In this document: in pieces, positions 95 through 26,213 of the stretch
How the letters are laid out: the number at the start of each line of letters is the position of its first letter
How positions within the stretch are numbered: the first letter of the stretch is position 1
IMG/VR virus record: IMGVR_UViG_2585427778_000003
Reading direction: 5' to 3' (one strand)
DNA from: a virus
Lineage: Duplodnaviria; Heunggongvirae; Uroviricota; Caudoviricetes
DNA: 27,680 bases
Made by a program: the position numbers and the translations under genes
Notes under the pieces: generated by a model
What the model was told of the DNA's origin: nothing
The model's input: the letters and a program-made list of their open reading frames with translations, nothing else
Databases searched by the model: none

Positions 95-366
95 CGTCAC
101 AACCATCACGCCCCACAAAAAAAACCATTAACCATCTGATTATCATGAATAAATGTTGTGATGGTAAAACCATCACAAAACGTAACGTAAACCGTCACAC
201 CCTATAAATTCAGCGAGTTATAAAACAGAGTTGTGATGTTTTAAGGCCGTCACACTGTGATGCTCTTGTGATGCTCTTGTGATGGTTTTCAATATATGAA
301 TTTACTTATACATATCATATAGATAAATGATATTTTTTAAATCTGTGATGTTTGTGACGGTTTTCC
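95..366. repeat. Array of about 12 short repeats GTGATG / CRTCAC in both orientations, several extended to AAAACC(A/G)TCAC; includes 11-bp tandem CTCTTGTGATG x2
   Basis: Read directly: CRTCAC at 95-100, 104-109, 171-176, 193-198, 248-253; GTGAYG at 158-163, 233-238, 257-262, 268-273, 279-284, 345-350, 354-359. No ORF of 60 aa or more in 1..886. Confidence 0.5.
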
Positions 367-19801: not shown

Positions 19802-20817
19802 AAAAACGGAAATACAGGGAACGCCGCACCGCCAGCAAGCCGCGCCATATGAGCCTTATTACCCTGGGTAAACCGGAACCCATTCTGACGACCGGCACAA
19901 ACTACACAGACGTCTGGTATGACAATGAAGCGGAACACTGGACGCTCCCGATTGACCGGCTGGCGCTGGCGCAACTGGTGAACCTGAACGCGCAGCACGG
20001 CGGTGTGCTGTATGCCCGTCGCAATATGGTGACGGCAAACTATAAAGACGGCGGACTGACGCATGAACAGCTTGGTGCAGCCGTGTTCGACTGGCTGACC
20101 TTCGGTGATGTGGCCATTCTGAAAGTGCGTAACGGCTGGGGGGATGTGGTGGCACTGTACCCGCTGCCGGCACTCTATACCCGCCAGCGTAAGACCGGGG
20201 AGTTTGTGGTACTGCAGCAGGGTGAACCGATGATTTATCCGCCTGAAGATATTATTTTTCTCAGGCAGTACGATCCGCAACAGGCGATTTATGGTCTGCC
20301 GGATTATATCAGCGGTATCCATTCTGCCCTGCTTAACGGTGAGGCAACAATTTTTCGTCGGCGTTACTACCATAACGGCGGACACACAGGTGGCATGATC
20401 TACTGTAACGACCCAAATATGACTGATGAAGTGGAAGAAGAAATTATTCAGAAGCTGGAGCAGTCAAAGGGGATCGGGAACTTCAGCACCATGTTTGTGA
20501 ACATCCCCAAAGGCGATCCGGACGGCATCAAATTTATCCCGATTGGGGATATCAGCGCCAAAGATGAGTTTCAGAACATCAAGAGCATCAGCGCCCAGGA
20601 CGTACTGACCGCGCATCGATTCCCGGCAGGACTGGCGGGGATTATCCCGACGAACGGCGCAGTAATGGGAGATGTTGAGAAAGCGTCCAAAACCTACCGC
20701 AAAGCAGAAATTTTGCCCATTCAGCGCATGTTTACCGCCGCAGTGGAACAGGAAAGTGATGTACCGCCCCACCTGTACCTTAATTTCCTGAAAGACAGTG
20801 AGCTGGAAGGTGATTAA
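19798..20817 (+). CDS. Q: Portal protein, gpQ, 339 aa
   Basis: Size as P2 gpQ (344 aa); second gene of P-Q operon; SD GGGAAAG upstream. Confidence 0.85.
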   Translation: MKKRKYRERRTASKPRHMSLITLGKPEPILTTGTNYTDVWYDNEAEHWTLPIDRLALAQLVNLNAQHGGVLYARRNMVTANYKDGGLTHEQLGAAVFDWLTFGDVAILKVRNGWGDVVALYPLPALYTRQRKTGEFVVLQQGEPMIYPPEDIIFLRQYDPQQAIYGLPDYISGIHSALLNGEATIFRRRYYHNGGHTGGMIYCNDPNMTDEVEEEIIQKLEQSKGIGNFSTMFVNIPKGDPDGIKFIPIGDISAKDEFQNIKSISAQDVLTAHRFPAGLAGIIPTNGAVMGDVEKASKTYRKAEILPIQRMFTAAVEQESDVPPHLYLNFLKDSELEGD

Positions 20818-20870
20818 TGTTCGCAAAAAGGCTAAAATATCATCGTTTTCCAACTTCCGGAGCGATGGAT

Positions 20871-21146
20871 ATGCGGGTAATGAAGGTTTACTGTCCGGTA
20901 TGTGAGGCAAGGGCTGTTATCAAAAAAACAGCCCGAAAACACAAGGAACTGTCGGATTTATATTGCGCGTGTACCGATGTTGAATGTGGTCACACTTTTG
21001 TGATGAATATGACATTCTCACATACCATCAGCCCCAGCGCCAAATCCAGCGATGCGTTGATCGCCACTATCTGTAACAGCCTTGATATCCAGCAAAAGCA
21101 GCTGATGTTAAAGTTTCTGAGTCAGGACGGCACTGCTGCCGCATAG
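20871..21146 (+). CDS. ogr: Ogr/Delta-family zinc-finger late transcription activator
   Basis: CPVC ... CACTDVECGHTF resembles P2 Ogr CPLC ... CQNVNCSATF; start uncertain (ATG 20871 with GGAG 8 nt upstream; ORF open from 20817). Confidence 0.75.
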   Translation: MRVMKVYCPVCEARAVIKKTARKHKELSDLYCACTDVECGHTFVMNMTFSHTISPSAKSSDALIATICNSLDIQQKQLMLKFLSQDGTAAA

Positions 21147-21151
21147 AAAAA

Positions 21152-21178
21152 AGCACCGCTACCGGTGCTTTTATTTTC
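21152..21178 (+). terminator. Rho-independent terminator after ogr (stem AGCACCG / CGGTGCT, loop CTAC, then TTTTATTTT); A-run upstream makes it potentially bidirectional
   Basis: Read directly from sequence at 21152-21178. Confidence 0.6.
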
Positions 21179-21285
21179 TGAGATGTAACAGATTCCCATC
21201 TATCAACGTCGATGAATGACCAAGTGATTAATAGTCCCCCCCTCCTAAACATGATATTATCTTTCCAAATTTTGGGAGGCATCTT

Positions 21286-22005
21286 ATGTTAATAGTCTCA
21301 GTTCTTAAATGTAGTAAAGAGTTTACCCCTAAACACGCCCAATGGCTTCATCGTCAGTTCAAAGATATTCCATCTATATGTTTAACCGATGCAGATAATA
21401 TTCCTGGAGTTAACACAACCCCTTTGCTTTATAACTGGCCGGGATGGTGGTCTAAAATTGAACTATTTAATCCTAATCACCCAGTCCTTGGAGACCAAGA
21501 TTTACTCTATTTTGACGTAGATGTTGTGGTCACGGGAGATATTCATATTTTCGAAGGTGCGAAGAAATTTACAATGCTTCGGGAGTTTAACCATGCCTCA
21601 AGAGTAAACTCATCAATAATGATGATTCCGGCGTCGATTAAAAAGACGATTTGGGAACAATTCATTATTGATCCTGAGAAAATTATGCGCAATTGTCAGA
21701 CTGAAGACAAATGGGGTGATCAGGGATTTCTCGGTAGCATCATAAAACCAGCCCTATGGCAGGATATCATTCCTGGCTCAATTGTTAGTTATAAATGTGA
21801 CATCGCCACCCCCTCGATGATTGGCTTCAATGCAAATTTAGCCTCTGAGGCTGCGACAGGGAAAGTCCCTGATAATGTGGCGGTTGTTTGCTTTCATGGC
21901 AGTCCACGCCCCTGGCGTACTGGTTTTGATTGGGTTCCTTCGTTTTCCCTGCGGGATACTCTGTACGGTAAATTAAAGAACTTTAAAATAAGAATGAAGC
22001 AATAA
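21286..22005 (+). CDS. Soluble GT8-like (glycogenin/LgtC/WaaJ-type) nucleotide-sugar glycosyltransferase, 239 aa; AT-rich moron
   Basis: Strong SD GGGAGG 21274-21279; DxD-type FDVDVVV, GDQGFL and C-terminal FHGSPRPW (HxxGxxKPW-like); no TM or signal peptide; codon usage visibly AT-richer than flanking genes. Confidence 0.6.
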   Translation: MLIVSVLKCSKEFTPKHAQWLHRQFKDIPSICLTDADNIPGVNTTPLLYNWPGWWSKIELFNPNHPVLGDQDLLYFDVDVVVTGDIHIFEGAKKFTMLREFNHASRVNSSIMMIPASIKKTIWEQFIIDPEKIMRNCQTEDKWGDQGFLGSIIKPALWQDIIPGSIVSYKCDIATPSMIGFNANLASEAATGKVPDNVAVVCFHGSPRPWRTGFDWVPSFSLRDTLYGKLKNFKIRMKQ

Positions 22006-22073
22006 AGATAACGCCCCTATTGCTTCAATGTTCGCTCCTTCCCCTAACAATAAAGTTAGGCACTAGTGAACCG

Positions 22074-24731
22074 TTACTTTTCCCGGCCAAATATCCAGCA
22101 GCGGAATGTTTCCGGCATCCGTTGCATATCCCCTTTACCACGATTATGGCGCTCACTTACCGCGCTGCGCGTGGTGCTTTGTCTGATAAACCGGCGCTCA
22201 TTGCCGTTTTTAAGCAGCTTTTTAATTTCCGTTAACGTGAACGGAATACGCTGCCGGTGTGCTGCGGCGACCTCTTCCATGTGATTGAAATTAACCGCGA
22301 TTTCATTTTCATCTGATGAATGATTGATGCCATAAGGTGCCAGTTCATCCAAGTAATCAAACAGCTCCCAGAACTCCTGCACCAGAGGATGATCCTTTTT
22401 AAGTGCCTGACAACGTTCAACGGCCAGCGCGGTGATGGCTTCACGCGTTTTTTCTATACGTTCAACCGGCACCGGTACAACAAGTGCAAGCGCCTCCAGC
22501 AAGCCCACAAGCTGCGCGTGATTCTTTGCAATACGGATATGGCGAATACTGCTATTAGACTCCAGCTCATTCCTAGCTCGCTCGTACCCCCTGCCGAACG
22601 TCTGCATGATTTCTTTTTCGCGCATGGTGGCCAGTAATGTGAATCCGGATACCTGGCTAACGGGGAGTTGTTCAAGTCGTTCTGCAGCGTGGCGCGTCTG
22701 AATGGACTGGCCGCGCTTGTCGGTATAGATGTGGATGATACGCTCCAGAAACGCCTTGCTGCCGTCTGTGTCGGCATTTTGCGCTATCACAATACTTCCC
22801 CTGAACGGCGGCTCATACGTCTCGTTATTGTTCGATTTGATACCCACGGCGCGGGAGGCACGACCGTTATACAGTGATTTCAGCTCGTCCCAGTCAAAAG
22901 CGCGTTGCTTGGCGTTATCGGTAGTACGGTCGCCCTCAATCAGCACAACCGGCAGATTACCGACCTGGGCGAAGTTACGGCCACGCGCGGCGGCGGTAGA
23001 TTTAGATGGGTCAAACCCTTCGTATTCCTCACGGCCGGCGAGCTTCCAGAGAAATTCTATCAGCGTGGATTTACCTGTCCCCGGCTCGCCCACGATTTCC
23101 AGAAACGGAAATGACTTGTCACGCTCGCGGATTTGTTCGGCAAACAGCGACCCCAGCCAGAACGCCAGCGCCACATACCCTTTTTCACCAAATGCCGTCC
23201 AGATATCGTCTACCCAACCCGTAGTAAACTCGTTCAGCTTCGGATTCAGATCCAGCGCCGGCGTGAGGCTCAGGCTCTTAACGCTGGCACTGTTGATTTC
23301 GAAGTAATCCTCGTCGTTCATCTCATACAGCCGGCCATCGCAAACGGCCACGCGGTTAAACAACCAGGCGGCATAATCCTTGTTATAGCCGATGAAATTC
23401 TGCGTCTTTACCTCTTTGATTTCAGGGAGGCGCATCTGGATGAACTTATCCAGCTGTTTGGTGCTGCCTGTGTACACCGCCCCTTTGGCGATGTGCAGCA
23501 GACGCTTTTTGAACTCGGCGGAGCTGGTGAGCTGATTAGCCGTGAAAGTATCTTTCACGGCTGGCCGGTTAGGCATACTGACTTTCACGTAATACCAGGA
23601 CTCGTCCGTAGGTTCAGACCGCTGAAAGTAAAGCGGCGTCAGCCAGCAGTTAGCTATTTCGGTCACGCCGCCTGACTCTTTAACCGCCCGTTCTTTGGCC
23701 TCCCACTCCATCACCACTTCGGTACCGGTATTGGTGATGCGCTCATAGGCTCGCATATACCTGTCCAGATCCAGCTCAAACCAGTACATGCGGGAGTTAT
23801 GCTCAAAGTAGAACGAGTGCCACTCGTTATGCTGATGCATGAGCAGCGCTTTCTCAGTCGGGCTTTTTGCCAGAAGGAGATCGCCATAGTAGCGATAATT
23901 TTTAATGTCCGACTTACTGAACCGGTTACGTAACAACAGGTCATTCCAGTCCAGCGATGCCGATGATTTCACCGGCTGCGCGGCACGAGTTTTCCATCCT
24001 GCAGCATCACTACGGGCAGCGAACGCCAGTGTGTGCTTTGTGCCGGCTTTATCGCCGTCAAACGCCCATACAAGACGTGGACGTGGTTTTTCACCCAGTT
24101 CTTTGGCCAGCGTATCCAGTGCGGCCAGCGGATAGTTGTTACTGCTCAGTGTGGCAACTGCAGGTAACCCTGCCTGGCACAGACTCAGCGCGTTGAAGAT
24201 TCCCTCAGTGATCCAGATTTCGTTCACTTCCTGCAGGTTGATAAAGGGAGGAACCCACCAGTGACCGACATAGCTTCCCCTGATGTTGGCTTTCTGCTTA
24301 CCGAAGCGCTGCGGCTGGTCAATGATGCGCTCCCATGTTGCACCGCATGACAGCGAAAATCTGACCGTTGCCGACCCCATGCCATCTTTCACGAATGCAC
24401 CCTGGGTAAAACAGCCTTTTAATGGCTCAGTCTCCAGCCCTCTGGCCTCGCGCAGATACGCCTCAGCTACTGCATGGGGGTTATCTTCTGTGGTCTGGTA
24501 ACGTTTTGACCAGTCTTCAAAGATATCCGGATACAGCTCTTTCACGACAATCTGATGTGCGCAGTTATTTTCACGGCCACATTTCAGAATCCAGGGCTTT
24601 TCTATGCTGGTAAATAATTCGCGCTTACGACAGGCAGGGCAAACGCCCTGCTGCAAATACTTATCCCGCTCTTTAAATTCAAAGTCCCGAACAAGACGGC
24701 GCACAACGTCCTGTTGTATCGTTTCGTTCAT
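22074..24731 (-). CDS. Replication primase-helicase, P4 alpha / HP1 Rep-like, 885 aa
   Basis: N-terminal zinc ribbon (CPACRK...CGRENNCAH), central primase region, Walker A GEPGTGKST and Walker B-like VLIEGD in C-terminal helicase part. Confidence 0.8.
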   Translation of the reverse strand: MNETIQQDVVRRLVRDFEFKERDKYLQQGVCPACRKRELFTSIEKPWILKCGRENNCAHQIVVKELYPDIFEDWSKRYQTTEDNPHAVAEAYLREARGLETEPLKGCFTQGAFVKDGMGSATVRFSLSCGATWERIIDQPQRFGKQKANIRGSYVGHWWVPPFINLQEVNEIWITEGIFNALSLCQAGLPAVATLSSNNYPLAALDTLAKELGEKPRPRLVWAFDGDKAGTKHTLAFAARSDAAGWKTRAAQPVKSSASLDWNDLLLRNRFSKSDIKNYRYYGDLLLAKSPTEKALLMHQHNEWHSFYFEHNSRMYWFELDLDRYMRAYERITNTGTEVVMEWEAKERAVKESGGVTEIANCWLTPLYFQRSEPTDESWYYVKVSMPNRPAVKDTFTANQLTSSAEFKKRLLHIAKGAVYTGSTKQLDKFIQMRLPEIKEVKTQNFIGYNKDYAAWLFNRVAVCDGRLYEMNDEDYFEINSASVKSLSLTPALDLNPKLNEFTTGWVDDIWTAFGEKGYVALAFWLGSLFAEQIRERDKSFPFLEIVGEPGTGKSTLIEFLWKLAGREEYEGFDPSKSTAAARGRNFAQVGNLPVVLIEGDRTTDNAKQRAFDWDELKSLYNGRASRAVGIKSNNNETYEPPFRGSIVIAQNADTDGSKAFLERIIHIYTDKRGQSIQTRHAAERLEQLPVSQVSGFTLLATMREKEIMQTFGRGYERARNELESNSSIRHIRIAKNHAQLVGLLEALALVVPVPVERIEKTREAITALAVERCQALKKDHPLVQEFWELFDYLDELAPYGINHSSDENEIAVNFNHMEEVAAAHRQRIPFTLTEIKKLLKNGNERRFIRQSTTRSAVSERHNRGKGDMQRMPETFRCWIFGREK

Positions 24732-24990
24732 AAATAATCCAGATGTGAATAATGGGTAAAAGGCAAAAACTATATTCTGTACTGCTTGTTATATCGCTCA
24801 TGTGTCATTAGTTCCCAGCTTCTGCCCTTATCCTTACTCAGTAATCGTCAGCGATAAGAAACATGAACAGAGAAATAATGTTTTGGCTTAATAACCTGAT
24901 ATACCTTTTTGCCGTTGTAATATTCTGTCAGCACTGAAAATGCCTTGTGAATGACACTTTCACTTGCATGAGAGGTCACTGTAAGCATCG

Positions 24991-25560
24991 TTATTTCACA
25001 CTGGCTATTTTTACAAGATACATCCAGACATAAGAAACAACTTTAGCCTGATGAATGGCATCATATAAAGCGTGATGTTTAACACCATCAAACTTAATAA
25101 TATTACGAACATTCAGCCCAAGTGTTTTTGACAGTTCAACAACCGTTCTTACATCACGGTCATTCCAGTAGTACCAAAGTGGATCGGCAAACCCGCATTT
25201 CTCTGATGCATTACGTAAAATAACATTGTCGAACGCTGCACTATTCCCCCATACCTGTACTTTAGATGGGTCAGAATGCTCAGTAATAAAAGCTTCCAGA
25301 TTAGCTAACGTCAGAGGCAAGTCCAGACAATCGTCATTAAGCAGCTCGCTACGCGCTTCGGCATCCTGACGCATCCACCATAATACGGTTTCTGACCCCA
25401 TAGTGAGACCGTGGCCTACACAGCTGCCCAGGCTGACACGTTGATAAAACTGTTCACCCATTTCGCCAGTTTCAGGGTCAAAGAATACAGCACCGATAGA
25501 AGCAATCGCAGAAGTCGGTTTATTATCCATTGTTTCAAGATCAATCATTAAATGTTTCAT
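24991..25560 (-). CDS. DEDDh (DnaQ-like) 3'-5' exonuclease, 189 aa
   Basis: Exo I DLETMD, Exo II FDNVIL, Exo III H-x4-D in KHHALYDA; SD AAGGAA upstream. Confidence 0.75.
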   Translation of the reverse strand: MKHLMIDLETMDNKPTSAIASIGAVFFDPETGEMGEQFYQRVSLGSCVGHGLTMGSETVLWWMRQDAEARSELLNDDCLDLPLTLANLEAFITEHSDPSKVQVWGNSAAFDNVILRNASEKCGFADPLWYYWNDRDVRTVVELSKTLGLNVRNIIKFDGVKHHALYDAIHQAKVVSYVWMYLVKIASVK

Positions 25561-25569
25561 ATCGGTTCC

Positions 25570-25905
25570 TTAACGTTGGGAAGCTGCAACAGATTTAAGA
25601 TGCGAGTTATTACTTTTTAACGCTGTGGTAGCCAGCGACATAAGACCGGAAATGTTATTTTCAGTTGGTATATTTCCGCCAAATACCATAAGCGTGATTT
25701 TGTGCAGTTCTTCAAAATCATCACTATCATTATTAAAGCGAGCAGTGGAGGTTATACCCTCAAGGCATTTTGCAAGCTGAATGTTTAATTCCATTAACTG
25801 CAAGCCATCGCTATGTACAGAGAATGTTTCTTTATCAATGGTTTTTGCCTGAGCGTGATAGTTTTGCAACAGACTACGAATCAGCGTGGCATATTTAGTC
25901 TTCAT
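25570..25905 (-). CDS. Hypothetical early protein, about 111 aa, AT-rich
   Basis: ATG at 25903-25905 preceded by GGGGA; ORF-track start 25917 is TTG; occupies the cox-proximal slot where P2 has gene B, but no similarity recognised. Confidence 0.45.
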   Translation of the reverse strand: MKTKYATLIRSLLQNYHAQAKTIDKETFSVHSDGLQLMELNIQLAKCLEGITSTARFNNDSDDFEELHKITLMVFGGNIPTENNISGLMSLATTALKSNNSHLKSVAASQR

Positions 25906-25931
25906 GATAATCCCCAATAATATTTAGTTTA

Positions 25932-26213
25932 CTAACGAGCACTTTTATCTTTCGTGAATAAACGGTTCTTCCAGTCATGCCATTCAGGCGGGGCAATTTG
26001 AGCCAAATGAATGGCATAAGCATCCCATTCCCCCCGATGGATATAGATTTCTCCACCTTTTTTTGATGGATTTAGAGGGTCTTTCATGCGGATTACCGGC
26101 AGTTTTCCAGCCGTGGCCATTTTGCGAATTGCAGCAGGCGTTTTGCCTATATATTCGGCAAAAAGCTCAGGGGTCACCAACTCTGAAAGCGCCTTTTCTG
26201 CTGGTTCCTTCAT
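25932..26213 (-). CDS. cox: Cox (excisionase and repressor of Pc), 93 aa
   Basis: FAEYIGKTPAAIRKMATAGKLPVIRMKDP aligns with remembered P2 Cox FAKLIGKSTGAVRRMIDKGKLPVIDMTDP; SD AAGGA upstream. Confidence 0.8.
   Translation of the reverse strand: MKEPAEKALSELVTPELFAEYIGKTPAAIRKMATAGKLPVIRMKDPLNPSKKGGEIYIHRGEWDAYAIHLAQIAPPEWHDWKNRLFTKDKSAR

What the first reader, a model, noticed from the sequence alone, without database searches (positions are those of the whole stretch)
21180..22073. AT-rich single-gene moron encoding a compact soluble GT8-like glycosyltransferase in the portal-to-replication cargo slot
Seen in sequence: a 239-aa ORF (21286..22005) with its own strong SD, sitting between the ogr terminator hairpin and the convergent 3' end of the primase-helicase gene, and visibly AT-richer than the surrounding phage genes. 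It carries FDVDVVV (DxD-type), GDQGFL and FHGSPRPW, which I recognise as the signature set of GT8 glycosyltransferases; there is no TM segment or signal peptide and it is shorter than typical GT8 enzymes. Established knowledge: the equivalent slot in P2 carries the old and tin exclusion genes and is a known hotspot for anti-phage cargo in P2-like prophages. Inference: a candidate single-protein defence, superinfection-exclusion or lysogenic-conversion function, for example LPS-core remodelling that removes the receptor of competing phages, or glycosylation of a protein or nucleic-acid target.
Basis: partly seen in the sequence, partly recalled or inferred. Interest (0 to 1): 0.72.

Follow-up and report, generated by a model that had tools for sequence, protein, structure and literature searches.

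The report
Orphan GT8-like glycosyltransferase in prophage slot
A small, AT-rich gene dropped into a variable cargo slot of a P2-family E. coli prophage really does encode a compact sugar-transferring enzyme, a relative of the uncharacterised phage P1 protein PmgQ, but what it glycosylates (most likely a host surface sugar chain used as a phage receptor) is still unproven.

Summary
ORF 21286..22005 (239 aa) is real, soluble and AT-rich (41% GC against 53.5% in the flanking genes). It has its own SD, sits after the ogr terminator and converges on the primase-helicase gene.

Six sister prophages carry other cargo, or none, between 21044 and 22070, so this is a true variable slot.

New here: the family splits in two. 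Distant members (<49% identity, P1 included) lie next to, or are fused with, a DUF115/"sialyltransferase-like" partner, mostly inside head/neck modules. The window's clade (≥49% identity) never has that partner and has its own upstream region. It sits at prophage ends, usually beside tail-fibre genes and sometimes with an acetyltransferase, or alone in bacterial chromosomes.

The best reading, which is inferred, is a lysogen-expressed modifier of LPS or O-antigen precursors that masks a phage receptor. The target is untested. This is a new member of a known but uncharacterised family.

The parts
21044..22070 (.). Variable cargo slot. DNA homology to six sister prophages/phages stops at about 21043-21047 (inside the C-terminal third of ogr) and resumes at about 22071-22089 (primase stop codon).
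   Evidence: blastn against L092-L096 and ESSI2_ev239. In the sisters the slot holds 295 bp with no ORF, small ORFs of 62-123 aa, or a 335-aa ORF.
20817..21146 (+). ogr/Delta-like zinc-finger late activator gene, the upstream border. Its last third or so lies inside the variable slot.
   Evidence: Pfam Ogr_Delta 1.1e-15 and PHROG 603. It is only 60% identical to the sister prophages' ogr, against 93% for the portal.
21149..21172 (+). Intrinsic terminator hairpin of ogr (10-bp stem, 4-nt loop, T run).
   Evidence: Fold energy -16.2 kcal/mol, z -4.7.
21252..21260 (+). Extended -10-like motif TGATATTAT, a candidate promoter for the gene itself. This is a pattern match only.
   Evidence: The stricter two-hexamer scan found no promoter. 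There is no Ogr-type TGT-N12-ACA site here.
21274..21279 (+). Shine-Dalgarno sequence GGGAGG, 6 nt before the ATG.
   Evidence: Read from the sequence.
21286..22005 (+). CDS for the 239-aa soluble GT8-like glycosyltransferase (PmgQ / PHROG 1962 family, orphan subclade; RefSeq WP_000909748.1).
21514..21522 (+). Codons for D77-V78-D79, the DxD metal/nucleotide-sugar motif.
   Evidence: Invariant in 50 homologues. Aligned to D-A-D of glycogenin and Gat1 and of WaaJ.
21715..21723 (+). Codons for G144-D145-Q146, the GDQG sugar-binding loop.
   Evidence: Invariant or near-invariant. Aligned to GDQG of glycogenin and GDTG of Gat1.
21895..21915 (+). Codons for H204-G-S-P-R-P-W210, the C-terminal His / basic-residue-Pro-Trp motif.
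   Evidence: H204, G205 and P207 are invariant. Aligned to HFLGQTKPW of glycogenin, but the His lies two residues later than the canonical GT8 His.
21990..22032 (.). Inverted repeat overlapping the stop codon. On the minus strand it is followed by a T run, so it is a likely terminator for the convergent primase gene and possibly a weak one for the GT gene.
   Evidence: Fold energies -10.5 (+) and -16.1 (-) kcal/mol.
22074..24731 (-). Primase-helicase gene (Toprim + DUF5906/P-loop), the downstream border of the slot.
   Evidence: It is 93-95% identical in the sister prophages.

Best explanation
**Shown**
- The ORF encodes a soluble 239-aa GT-A-fold enzyme of the GT8 type: DxD/metal-dependent, using a nucleotide sugar, and presumably retaining.
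- It belongs to the phage P1 PmgQ / PHROG 1962 family.
- It is a horizontally acquired single-gene cassette filling a variable slot between ogr and the primase-helicase gene of an Evevirus-like, P2-family prophage of E. coli.
- It belongs to a derived 'orphan' subclade. This subclade has lost the DUF115/MptE-like partner that accompanies most other family members, and it has its own upstream intergenic region.

**Inferred**
- The gene is transcribed on its own, probably in the lysogen.
- The enzyme transfers a hexose from a UDP-sugar onto a host envelope glycan precursor at the cytoplasmic face of the inner membrane, either LPS core or an undecaprenyl-linked O-unit.
- This alters the LPS structure that P2/P1/Mu-type tail fibres recognise. 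The result would be lysogenic conversion or superinfection exclusion by receptor masking.
- In logic this resembles the prophage-encoded cytoplasmic GT-A enzyme TarP of S. aureus (cited from my own knowledge), not the membrane-bound GtrABC system.
For: **Enzyme identity**
- AF2 model: pLDDT 96.2, pTM 0.92.
- The family profile hits Gat1 at E=1.2e-7 and glycogenin at about 3e-6, with DxD, GDQG and H..G..K/R-P-W aligned. WaaJ aligns over the same motifs.
- PHROG 1962 matches at 5.8e-81. Identity to P1 PmgQ is 40%.
- Selection is purifying.

**Cassette and slot**
- GC is 41% against 53.5%.
- The homology breakpoints are 21044 and 22070, and six sister phages hold different contents there.
- The slot corresponds to the published P2 hotspot.

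**Orphan clade**
- None of 28 loci at >=49% identity has the PmgO-like partner. Fifty of 66 loci at <49% do, at a median distance of 26 nt.
- Orphan genes have 119-611 nt upstream gaps with promoter-like motifs in the eight regions examined. Most partner-clade genes overlap or abut their neighbours.

**Host-directed target**
- Close homologues (71-79% identity) sit in three otherwise unrelated phage backbones: P2/HP1-like, lambdoid Chlobot and Mu-like.
- Members at 52-54% identity are lone chromosomal genes with no phage genes within 7 kb, in Shimwellia and Vitreoscilla.
- Phage ESSI2_ev239 has the same tail fibre (88%) and assembly protein (96%) but no GT gene.

**Envelope-glycan theme**
- In Chlobot the gene lies between int and the tail-fibre genes. 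From my own knowledge, that is where P22 keeps gtrABC.
- In E. albertii-type and Salmonella loci it is paired with an LbH acetyltransferase, and sometimes GT4 gene fragments follow it.
- In the C. amalonaticus sister prophage the 79% homologue occupies the att/tail-spike site. In the E. coli prophage the gene at that same site is an Acyl_transf_3 O-acetyltransferase, 27% identical to Sf101 OacB.
Against: - No activity, donor, acceptor or expression data exist.
- The enzyme has no membrane anchor. The basic C-terminal helix is not amphipathic (hydrophobic moment 0.21).
- By sequence it is closer to cytosolic protein-glycan GT8s (Gat1, glycogenin, GlyE) than to LPS GT8s. LgtC did not appear in the profile search, and WaaJ/WaaO align only weakly.
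- The rest of the family points to a lytic-cycle or structural role. P1 pmgQ lies in an operon annotated with C1 operators and a late promoter, and distant members sit among portal, capsid and adaptor genes.
- The promoter call is only a pattern match.
- Sharing a site with an O-acetyltransferase is weak evidence, because cargo sites hold unrelated genes.
- PADLOC does not recognise the protein.
Confidence: 0.4

Rival explanations
1. Virion glycosylation. The enzyme adds sugar to a phage structural protein (tail fibre, its assembly protein, or a head protein) during lytic growth. This is what the partner-coupled relatives seem likely to do.
For: - In 41 partner-clade loci, the commonest same-strand neighbours within three genes are DUF115 ('sialyltransferase'), head closure, head-tail adaptor, major head, Neck1 and portal proteins, plus an FkbM methyltransferase.
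- GT-DUF115 fusions exist.
- P1 pmgO-pmgP-ppp-pmgQ has a late promoter annotated.
- Most orphan-clade genes lie directly beside tail-fibre or assembly genes of the same tip family as the window's.
- The best structural matches glycosylate proteins or protein-linked glycans.
- Phage virion glycosylation has a precedent in mycobacteriophages (papers retrieved, not read; otherwise my own knowledge).
Against: - In the window the gene is cut off from the late operon by a strong terminator and has no Ogr-type site.
- It lies about 15 kb from the tail-fibre genes.
- ESSI2_ev239 carries the same fibre and assembly protein without the gene.
- Sister prophages whose portal and large terminase are 93-96% identical lack it.
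- Near-identical enzymes serve unrelated virion architectures, and some are lone chromosomal genes.
- The DUF115 partner is absent from the whole window.
Confidence: 0.22
2. Intracellular single-gene anti-phage defence. The enzyme glycosylates a component of an invading phage (DNA, a protein or a nucleotide), or drains a UDP-sugar pool that phages such as the T-even phages need.
For: - The gene sits in the portal-primase slot, the main defence hotspot of P2-like phages.
- Many unannotated genes in such hotspots turn out to be defensive (PMC13586616 and PMC9122126).
- It is a single autonomous AT-rich gene.
- Its distribution is rare and patchy (18 of 5,426 genomes).
Against: - PADLOC gives no hit.
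- There is no sensor or regulatory domain in a compact 239-aa catalytic fold.
- Most clade members are not in defence hotspots but beside tail-fibre genes or at prophage ends.
- I know of no precedent for a GT8-based intracellular defence.
- The family's other members are phage lytic-cycle genes.
Confidence: 0.12
3. Lytic-cycle host takeover or counter-defence. The enzyme modifies a host protein, a signalling molecule or the cell surface during phage growth, for example to stop progeny adsorbing to debris or to disarm a host factor. It would not act in the lysogen.
For: - The P1 homologue lies in an operon annotated with C1 operators and a late promoter, and is dispensable for plaque formation.
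- PHROG places the family in 'moron, auxiliary metabolic gene and host takeover'.
- The gene is on the same strand as the terminase-portal-ogr genes immediately upstream.
Against: - A terminator separates it from ogr.
- Lone chromosomal copies in Shimwellia and Vitreoscilla have no phage cycle to serve.
- Nothing identifies a candidate target.
Confidence: 0.12
4. Inactive or decaying passenger gene with no current function.
For: It is rare, and six sister phages do without it.
Against: - The ORF is intact and all catalytic motifs are kept.
- dN/dS is far below 1.
- It is identical in all 18 genomes.
- The fold is predicted with high confidence.
Confidence: 0.03

Closest known systems
Phage P1 PmgQ / P7 HdmD (PHROG 1962 'glycosyltransferase')
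   Same: Full-length homology (40% identity over aa 1-221; PHROG E=5.8e-81). Same invariant DxD, GDQG and FHGxPRP motifs. A phage accessory gene of unknown target. P1 pmgQ is non-essential.
   Different: P1 pmgQ lies in the pmgO-pmgP-ppp-pmgQ operon with two DUF115/MptE-like proteins, C1 operators and a late promoter. The window's gene is a stand-alone unit without any DUF115 partner. It carries an extra basic C-terminal helix of about 18 aa and sits in a P2-type cargo slot.
CAZy GT8 cytosolic enzymes: glycogenin and Skp1 alpha-galactosyltransferase Gat1
   Different: Only 13-16% identity. The Pfam GT8 model does not reach threshold. The metal-binding His lies two residues later than in canonical GT8, with Cys202 in the canonical column. 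Those enzymes act on eukaryotic proteins or glycans that are absent here.
Bacterial LPS/LOS GT8 enzymes (WaaJ, WaaO, LgtC)
   Different: They are about 100 aa longer, with a C-terminal membrane-association region. Sequence similarity is weaker than to glycogenin (hhalign probability 40% for WaaJ and 13% for WaaO). LgtC was not retrieved by the profile. They are chromosomal waa/lgt genes, not phage cargo.
GtrABC serotype-converting systems of P22/SfX-type phages, and phage O-acetyltransferases (Oac/OacB)
   Same: Prophage cargo beside tail-fibre/att regions that changes the O-antigen receptor. Chlobot carries the GT homologue between int and the tail-fibre genes. The window's prophage also carries an Oac-like Acyl_transf_3 gene just outside the window.
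   Different: The Gtr system needs three membrane proteins (a GT2 enzyme, a flippase and a periplasmic GT-C) and acts through a lipid-linked glucose. Here there is one soluble GT8-like protein and no Gtr components. The Gtr details are from my own knowledge.
P2 old/tin and other cargo of the P2 portal-primase defence hotspot
   Same: Same relative position (between the portal end of the late region and the replication gene). Contents vary among close relatives. The composition is foreign.
   Different: The protein is unrelated to any catalogued defence protein (PADLOC has no hit). An ogr gene lies between the portal and the slot. The replication gene is a Toprim primase-helicase rather than P2 gpA.
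S. aureus prophage-encoded TarP (cytoplasmic GT-A that re-glycosylates wall teichoic acid)
   Same: The same functional logic as the preferred explanation: one prophage-borne soluble GT-A enzyme changes a surface glycopolymer before export and so alters phage and immune recognition (from my own knowledge).
   Different: TarP is a GT2 enzyme in a Gram-positive host with a different polymer. No homology was tested here.

Membership tests
GT-A fold nucleotide-sugar glycosyltransferase | Single Rossmann-like alpha/beta/alpha domain with a central mixed beta-sheet. | tested here: met
GT-A fold nucleotide-sugar glycosyltransferase | DxD motif at the end of a beta-strand, for divalent metal and nucleotide-sugar binding. 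| tested here: met
   D77-V-D79 is invariant in 50 homologues. It aligns to D-A-D of glycogenin, Gat1 and WaaJ. Metal binding itself was not tested.
CAZy GT8 / Pfam Glyco_transf_8 (PF01501) | Significant match to the family model at Pfam's gathering threshold. | tested here: not met
   The window protein has no Pfam hit even at E<=1. Only 9 of 50 homologues touch PF01501, with a best E of 0.0059.
CAZy GT8 / Pfam Glyco_transf_8 (PF01501) | Closest solved structures and profile hits are GT8 members. | tested here: met
CAZy GT8 / Pfam Glyco_transf_8 (PF01501) | C-terminal H-x-x-G-x-x-K-P-W motif (metal-binding His and phosphate-binding Lys). | tested here: inconclusive
   The window has C202-F-H204-G-S-P-R208-P-W. 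G, K/R, P and W align, but the His is shifted by two positions and Cys fills the canonical His column. I could not inspect the model's coordinates.
CAZy GT8 / Pfam Glyco_transf_8 (PF01501) | Retaining (alpha) transfer from a UDP-sugar. | not testable with these tools
   Needs an enzyme assay and product NMR or mass spectrometry.
P1 PmgQ / PHROG 1962 | Full-length match to the family profile. | tested here: met
   E=5.8e-81 over aa 1-223 of 239, covering profile positions 1-224 of 230. tblastn gives 40% identity to P1 PmgQ.
P1 PmgQ / PHROG 1962 | Adjacent or fused DUF115/MptE-like (PmgO-type, PHROG 4603) partner. This is typical of the family, not a formal criterion. | tested here: not met
   There is no PmgO/PmgP/DUF115 homologue anywhere in the window or in any of the 28 loci at >=49% identity. 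Fifty of 66 more distant loci have one.
Moron (autonomous extra gene in a prophage) | Inserted between genes that are adjacent in related phages. | tested here: met
   In Salmonella s1 only about 295 bp lie between the homology breakpoints, with no ORF. Five other sisters hold different contents.
Moron (autonomous extra gene in a prophage) | Nucleotide composition differs from the flanking genes. | tested here: met
   GC 41.0% against 53.5%; GC3 37.9% against 61.5%.
Moron (autonomous extra gene in a prophage) | Own promoter and terminator, and expression from the repressed prophage. | tested here: inconclusive
   There is an upstream terminator, a 140-nt leader, an extended -10-like TGATATTAT and a 3' hairpin. 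The two-hexamer scan found no promoter. Expression cannot be tested here.
P2 portal-primase anti-phage hotspot cargo | Located between the portal end of the late genes and the replication gene, with variable content among relatives. | tested here: met
   The hotspot is defined in PMC13586616.
P2 portal-primase anti-phage hotspot cargo | Recognised defence protein or a demonstrated anti-phage phenotype. | tested here: not met
   PADLOC-DB 2.0.0 gives no hit at E<=10. The phenotype is not testable here.
Gtr-type seroconversion | GtrA flippase, GtrB GT2 and GtrC membrane proteins encoded together. | not tested
   I did not scan the rest of the window for Gtr genes. The protein itself is soluble and GT8-like, not GT2 or GT-C.

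The most novel reading that the evidence does not exclude
The orphan PmgQ-type enzyme is a one-protein, glycosylation-based immunity or exclusion factor of a kind not yet described in Enterobacteria. There are two possible forms. It could be an intracellular defence that glycosylates an invading phage's DNA, protein or nucleotide, or drains a UDP-sugar. Or it could be the first single, soluble, non-Gtr prophage enzyme shown to rewrite LPS at the cytoplasmic face. In either case it would be a derivative of an ancestral phage virion-glycosylation cassette that was repurposed after losing its DUF115 partner. The probability given is for the stricter, intracellular-defence version.
Probability: 0.12. 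Interest if true: 0.8.

Novelty: new member of a known kind. Interest (0 to 1): 0.45.

Why it matters
- The PmgQ family is large: about 5,500 clusters at 50% identity, in P1, lambdoid, Mu-like and P2-like phages, jumbo phages and marine phages. I found no experimental function for it among the papers retrieved.
- The split shown here gives two concrete, cheap experiments: LPS profiling with a phage panel, and a virion glycoprotein analysis. On one side is a partner-coupled form inside head/neck modules. On the other is an orphan form that travels as a moron beside tail-fibre genes and into the P2 defence hotspot.
- If the orphan form rewrites LPS, it would be a new, Gtr-independent route to lysogenic conversion in E. 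coli and Salmonella. That would matter for serotyping, phage therapy host range and receptor-masking exclusion.
- If instead it acts inside the cell, it would be a new defence mechanism.
- If neither holds, it is an ordinary accessory glycosyltransferase.

Tried and rejected
- **Direct family searches.** Pfam, NCBIfam and PADLOC scans of the protein found nothing. phmmer of the single sequence against PDB found nothing; only the family profile reached GT8.
- **Ogr-dependent late promoter.** There is no TGT-N12-ACA site near the gene, and the window-wide count is no higher than chance. I rejected late-operon control.
- **C-terminal amphipathic membrane anchor (LgtC-like).** The helix is basic (+5), but its hydrophobic moment is only 0.21 and it is not among the top windows. 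I do not use it as evidence.
- **Mobile cassette with conserved flanks.** DNA similarity to homologues in other phages is confined to the ORF. I found no flanking repeats that would suggest a transposable unit.
- **Phase-variable poly-C tract.** The C7 run at 21236-21242 lies in the putative promoter, but all 18 genomes are identical, so there is no sign of phase variation.
- **Obligate link to one tail-fibre type.** Many carriers share the fibre tip. However, ESSI2_ev239 has the same fibre without the gene, and the K. aerogenes carrier's fibre genes did not match.
- **RNA elements.** Rfam finds nothing in 20700-22400.
- **Unavailable resources.** The AFDB50 fold search was not installed. The P1 genome paper (PMC523184) is not held.
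- **Literature.** Searches for pmgQ, pmgO and prophage GT8 found no functional study.
Full report
**1. The observation**

The ORF at 21286..22005 (+) is present as described: 239 aa, ATG start. GGGAGG lies 6 nt upstream of the ATG. The gene follows the ogr/Delta zinc-finger gene at 20817..21146 (Pfam 1.1e-15). That gene ends in a strong intrinsic terminator at 21149-21172 (-16.2 kcal/mol, z -4.7).

The ORF converges on an 885-aa Toprim/P-loop primase-helicase gene at 22074..24731. Its GC content is 41.0% and its GC3 37.9%. The structural genes are 53.5% GC and the portal GC3 is 61.5%. There is no TM segment or signal peptide.

This is a real gene under purifying selection (dN 0.13-0.43 with saturated dS; dN/dS 0.049 where computable). 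It has thousands of homologues.

**2. The surrounding element**

The window is a P2-family prophage. Its closest described relative is Escherichia phage ESSI2_ev239 (Peduoviridae, Evevirus) at 86.5% nucleotide identity. It is integrated between pheA/pheL and raiA in 18 of 5,426 complete E. coli genomes, mostly from pigs. RefSeq calls the gene a hypothetical protein, WP_000909748.1.

**3. The protein**

- Direct Pfam, NCBIfam, PADLOC and PDB sequence searches find nothing.
- PHROG 1962 ('glycosyltransferase', category moron/AMG/host takeover) matches end to end at 5.8e-81.
- A profile built from 50 homologues hits the GT8 enzymes Gat1 (1.2e-7), glycogenin (about 3e-6) and GlyE. DxD, GDQG and the C-terminal G-x-x-K/R-P-W are aligned.
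- AlphaFold2 on that alignment gives pLDDT 96.2 and pTM 0.92.
- In the viral structure library the best matches are phage GT8-like proteins, including fusions with MptE-like domains.

The GT8-like GT-A assignment is therefore well supported, with two caveats. Pfam's GT8 model is not reached. The putative metal-binding His lies two residues later than in canonical GT8. By sequence the family is nearer to glycogenin and Gat1 than to the LPS enzymes WaaJ, WaaO and LgtC.

**4. The slot**

DNA homology to five sister prophages stops at about 21043-21047, inside the last third of ogr. It resumes at about 22071-22089, at the primase stop. The same is true for ESSI2_ev239. The five prophages come from Salmonella, two Enterobacter, Ca. 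Erwinia dacicola and Pseudocitrobacter. Their portal and primase are 93-95% identical to the window's.

Between those breakpoints the sisters carry:
- about 295 bp with no ORF,
- one or two small ORFs (62-123 aa), or
- an unrelated 335-aa ORF.

Only the E. coli prophage has the glycosyltransferase. The position corresponds to the portal(GpQ)-primase(GpA) locus described as the main defence hotspot of P2-like phages (PMC13586616; PMC9122126).

**5. The family and its two lifestyles**

The protein is 40% identical to P1 PmgQ and P7 HdmD. In P1, pmgQ closes the operon pmgO-pmgP-ppp-pmgQ. The P1 record annotates C1 repressor operators and a late promoter for that operon. pmgQ is non-essential (PMC10695390). 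PmgO and PmgP are DUF115/MptE-like proteins; PmgO falls in PHROG 4603, 'alpha-2,3-sialyltransferase'.

I fetched 80 IMG/VR loci with relatives, out of at least 582, and added the other loci. The family then falls into two groups.

*Partner-coupled group.* Of 66 loci whose protein is <49% identical to the window's, 50 have a PmgO-like gene at a median distance of 26 nt. Several of the remaining 16 are 430-aa fusions with what looks like a divergent version of that domain. These genes usually overlap their neighbours. Their commonest same-strand neighbours are head closure, head-tail adaptor, major head, Neck1 and portal proteins, plus an FkbM methyltransferase.

*Orphan group.* Of 28 loci at >=49% identity, including the window, none has the partner, and the whole window has none. 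These genes have 119-611 nt upstream regions, with promoter-like motifs in the eight regions examined. Relative to the shorter members they carry an extra basic C-terminal helix.

**6. Where the orphan clade sits**

- Lambdoid phage Chlobot (75% identity): between int and the tfa-stf tail-fibre genes.
- C. amalonaticus (79%): at the opposite end of a sister P2/HP1-like prophage, between the host junction and the tail-spike gene.
- Salmonella s1 (76%): with an LbH acetyltransferase, between a tail-fibre assembly gene and a second fibre gene of a Mu-like prophage.
- K. aerogenes (50%): converging on the assembly gene of a Mu-like prophage.
- E. albertii and relatives (54%): at a prophage end after the fibre and assembly genes. 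In related IMG/VR loci an LbH acetyltransferase lies immediately upstream, and in some contigs GT4 gene fragments follow.
- Shimwellia blattae (52%) and Vitreoscilla (54%): a lone chromosomal gene with no phage genes within 7 kb.

DNA similarity between these copies is confined to the ORF. The window's tail-fibre tip (aa 320-525) and assembly protein are homologous to those next to the gene in most of these phages. But ESSI2_ev239 has the same fibre (88%) and assembly protein (96%) without the gene.

**7. A second surface-modifying gene in the same prophage**

Immediately before window position 1 lies a 367-aa Acyl_transf_3 O-acetyltransferase. It is 96.5% identical to ESSI2_ev239 gp35 and 27% identical to the Shigella phage Sf101 O-antigen acetyltransferase OacB. 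It lies inside a 16-nt direct repeat, CCTTCGGGCGCGTTTT, which is a candidate att core. This is the same att/tail-spike site that holds the glycosyltransferase homologue in the C. amalonaticus sister prophage.

**8. Interpretation**

*Shown.* This is a GT8-like glycosyltransferase of the PmgQ family. It was acquired as a single-gene cassette in a genuinely variable slot, and it belongs to a partner-less subclade with autonomous gene organisation.

*Inferred.* The target is probably a host molecule shared across Enterobacteriaceae rather than a phage-specific structural protein, for three reasons:
- Enzymes 71-79% identical serve three unrelated phage architectures.
- Some copies survive as lone chromosomal genes.
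- A sister phage builds the same fibre without the gene.

The recurring company of acetyltransferases and GT4 fragments, the tail-fibre/att-proximal sites, and the positional swap with an O-acetyltransferase all point to an envelope glycan. I therefore favour cytoplasmic-face modification of LPS core or O-unit precursors, leading to receptor masking. My confidence is about 0.4.

*Against this reading.* There is no membrane anchor. The sequence is closer to cytosolic protein-glycan GT8s. The rest of the family has a clearly lytic or structural context. No expression or biochemical data exist.

*Rivals.*
- Virion (fibre or head) glycosylation: about 0.22.
- Intracellular defence: about 0.12.
- Lytic-cycle takeover or counter-defence: about 0.12.
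- A dead passenger gene: about 0.03.

**9. Novelty and score**

The enzyme class and the 'glycosyltransferase' label are already in phage annotation resources, and the slot is a published hotspot. Two things are new here: the assignment of this gene to the PmgQ family, and the partner-coupled versus orphan split with its contrasting genomic settings. I rate the finding as a new member of a known, uncharacterised kind. It is of moderate interest (0.45) because it is directly testable and would assign a role to a very large phage protein family.

Noticed in passing
Immediately upstream of window position 1 (L104 2994-4097, minus strand in the record; NZ_AP023286.1 1115993-1117096): A 367-aa Acyl_transf_3 O-acetyltransferase is part of the same prophage. 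It is 96.5% identical to ESSI2_ev239 gp35 and 27% identical to Sf101 OacB. It lies inside a 16-nt direct repeat, CCTTCGGGCGCGTTTT, found at both prophage ends, which is a candidate att core. It is a second likely surface-glycan modifier in this element.
   Followed up: partly
window 100-360, within the non-coding stretch 1-1020: Eight GTGATG/CATCAC motifs cluster in about 250 nt of a 1-kb gene-free region between the O-acetyltransferase and the tail-spike gene. The linear ends of the ESSI2_ev239 record map near window position 830. This may be a packaging (cos) or regulatory region.
   Followed up: partly
window 20817-21146 (ogr-like gene): The ogr homologue is only about 60% identical to those of sister prophages whose portal is 93% identical. 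DNA homology breaks at about 21044, inside the gene, so the recombination boundary of the slot lies within ogr. The protein also has about 25 extra N-terminal residues before the Pfam zinc-finger match.
   Followed up: partly
L093 8356-9363 (Enterobacter asburiae sister prophage): The equivalent slot holds an unrelated 335-aa ORF on the opposite strand with no Pfam match. It is another uncharacterised cargo gene in the same hotspot.
   Followed up: no
L103 3144-5702 (phage P1 pmgO-pmgP-ppp-pmgQ): PmgO and PmgP are both DUF115/MptE-like ('sialyltransferase-like') proteins. Together with PmgQ they look like a three-enzyme glycosylation cassette, with C1 operators and a late promoter annotated in the P1 record. 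The same PmgO-PmgP-PmgQ trio occurs in Citrobacter phage phiNP between the lysis and terminase genes.
   Followed up: partly
L047 5989-7254, L051 5974-7284, L059 5272-6579, L032 5578-6585 and other IMG/VR loci: In environmental HK97-like phages the glycosyltransferase is fused to, or abuts, the DUF115 domain. It often has an FkbM methyltransferase nearby and lies between the major capsid or portal genes and the head-tail adaptor genes. This is a candidate virion-glycosylation module.
   Followed up: partly
L102 5941-9869 (Salmonella enterica s1, Mu-like prophage): A glycosyltransferase plus LbH-acetyltransferase pair sits on the opposite strand between a tail-fibre assembly gene and a second fibre/assembly cassette. 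The same genome also carries the Evevirus-like sister prophage with an empty slot.
   Followed up: partly
window 21236-21242: A run of seven C lies just upstream of the extended -10-like motif. Its length is identical in all 18 E. coli genomes, so there is no sign of slipped-strand phase variation.
   Followed up: yes
window 24600-26200: A second AT-rich stretch (GC 38-45%) covers the 3'-5' exonuclease, a 115-aa ORF and the cox-like gene of the early operon. I did not examine it.
   Followed up: no
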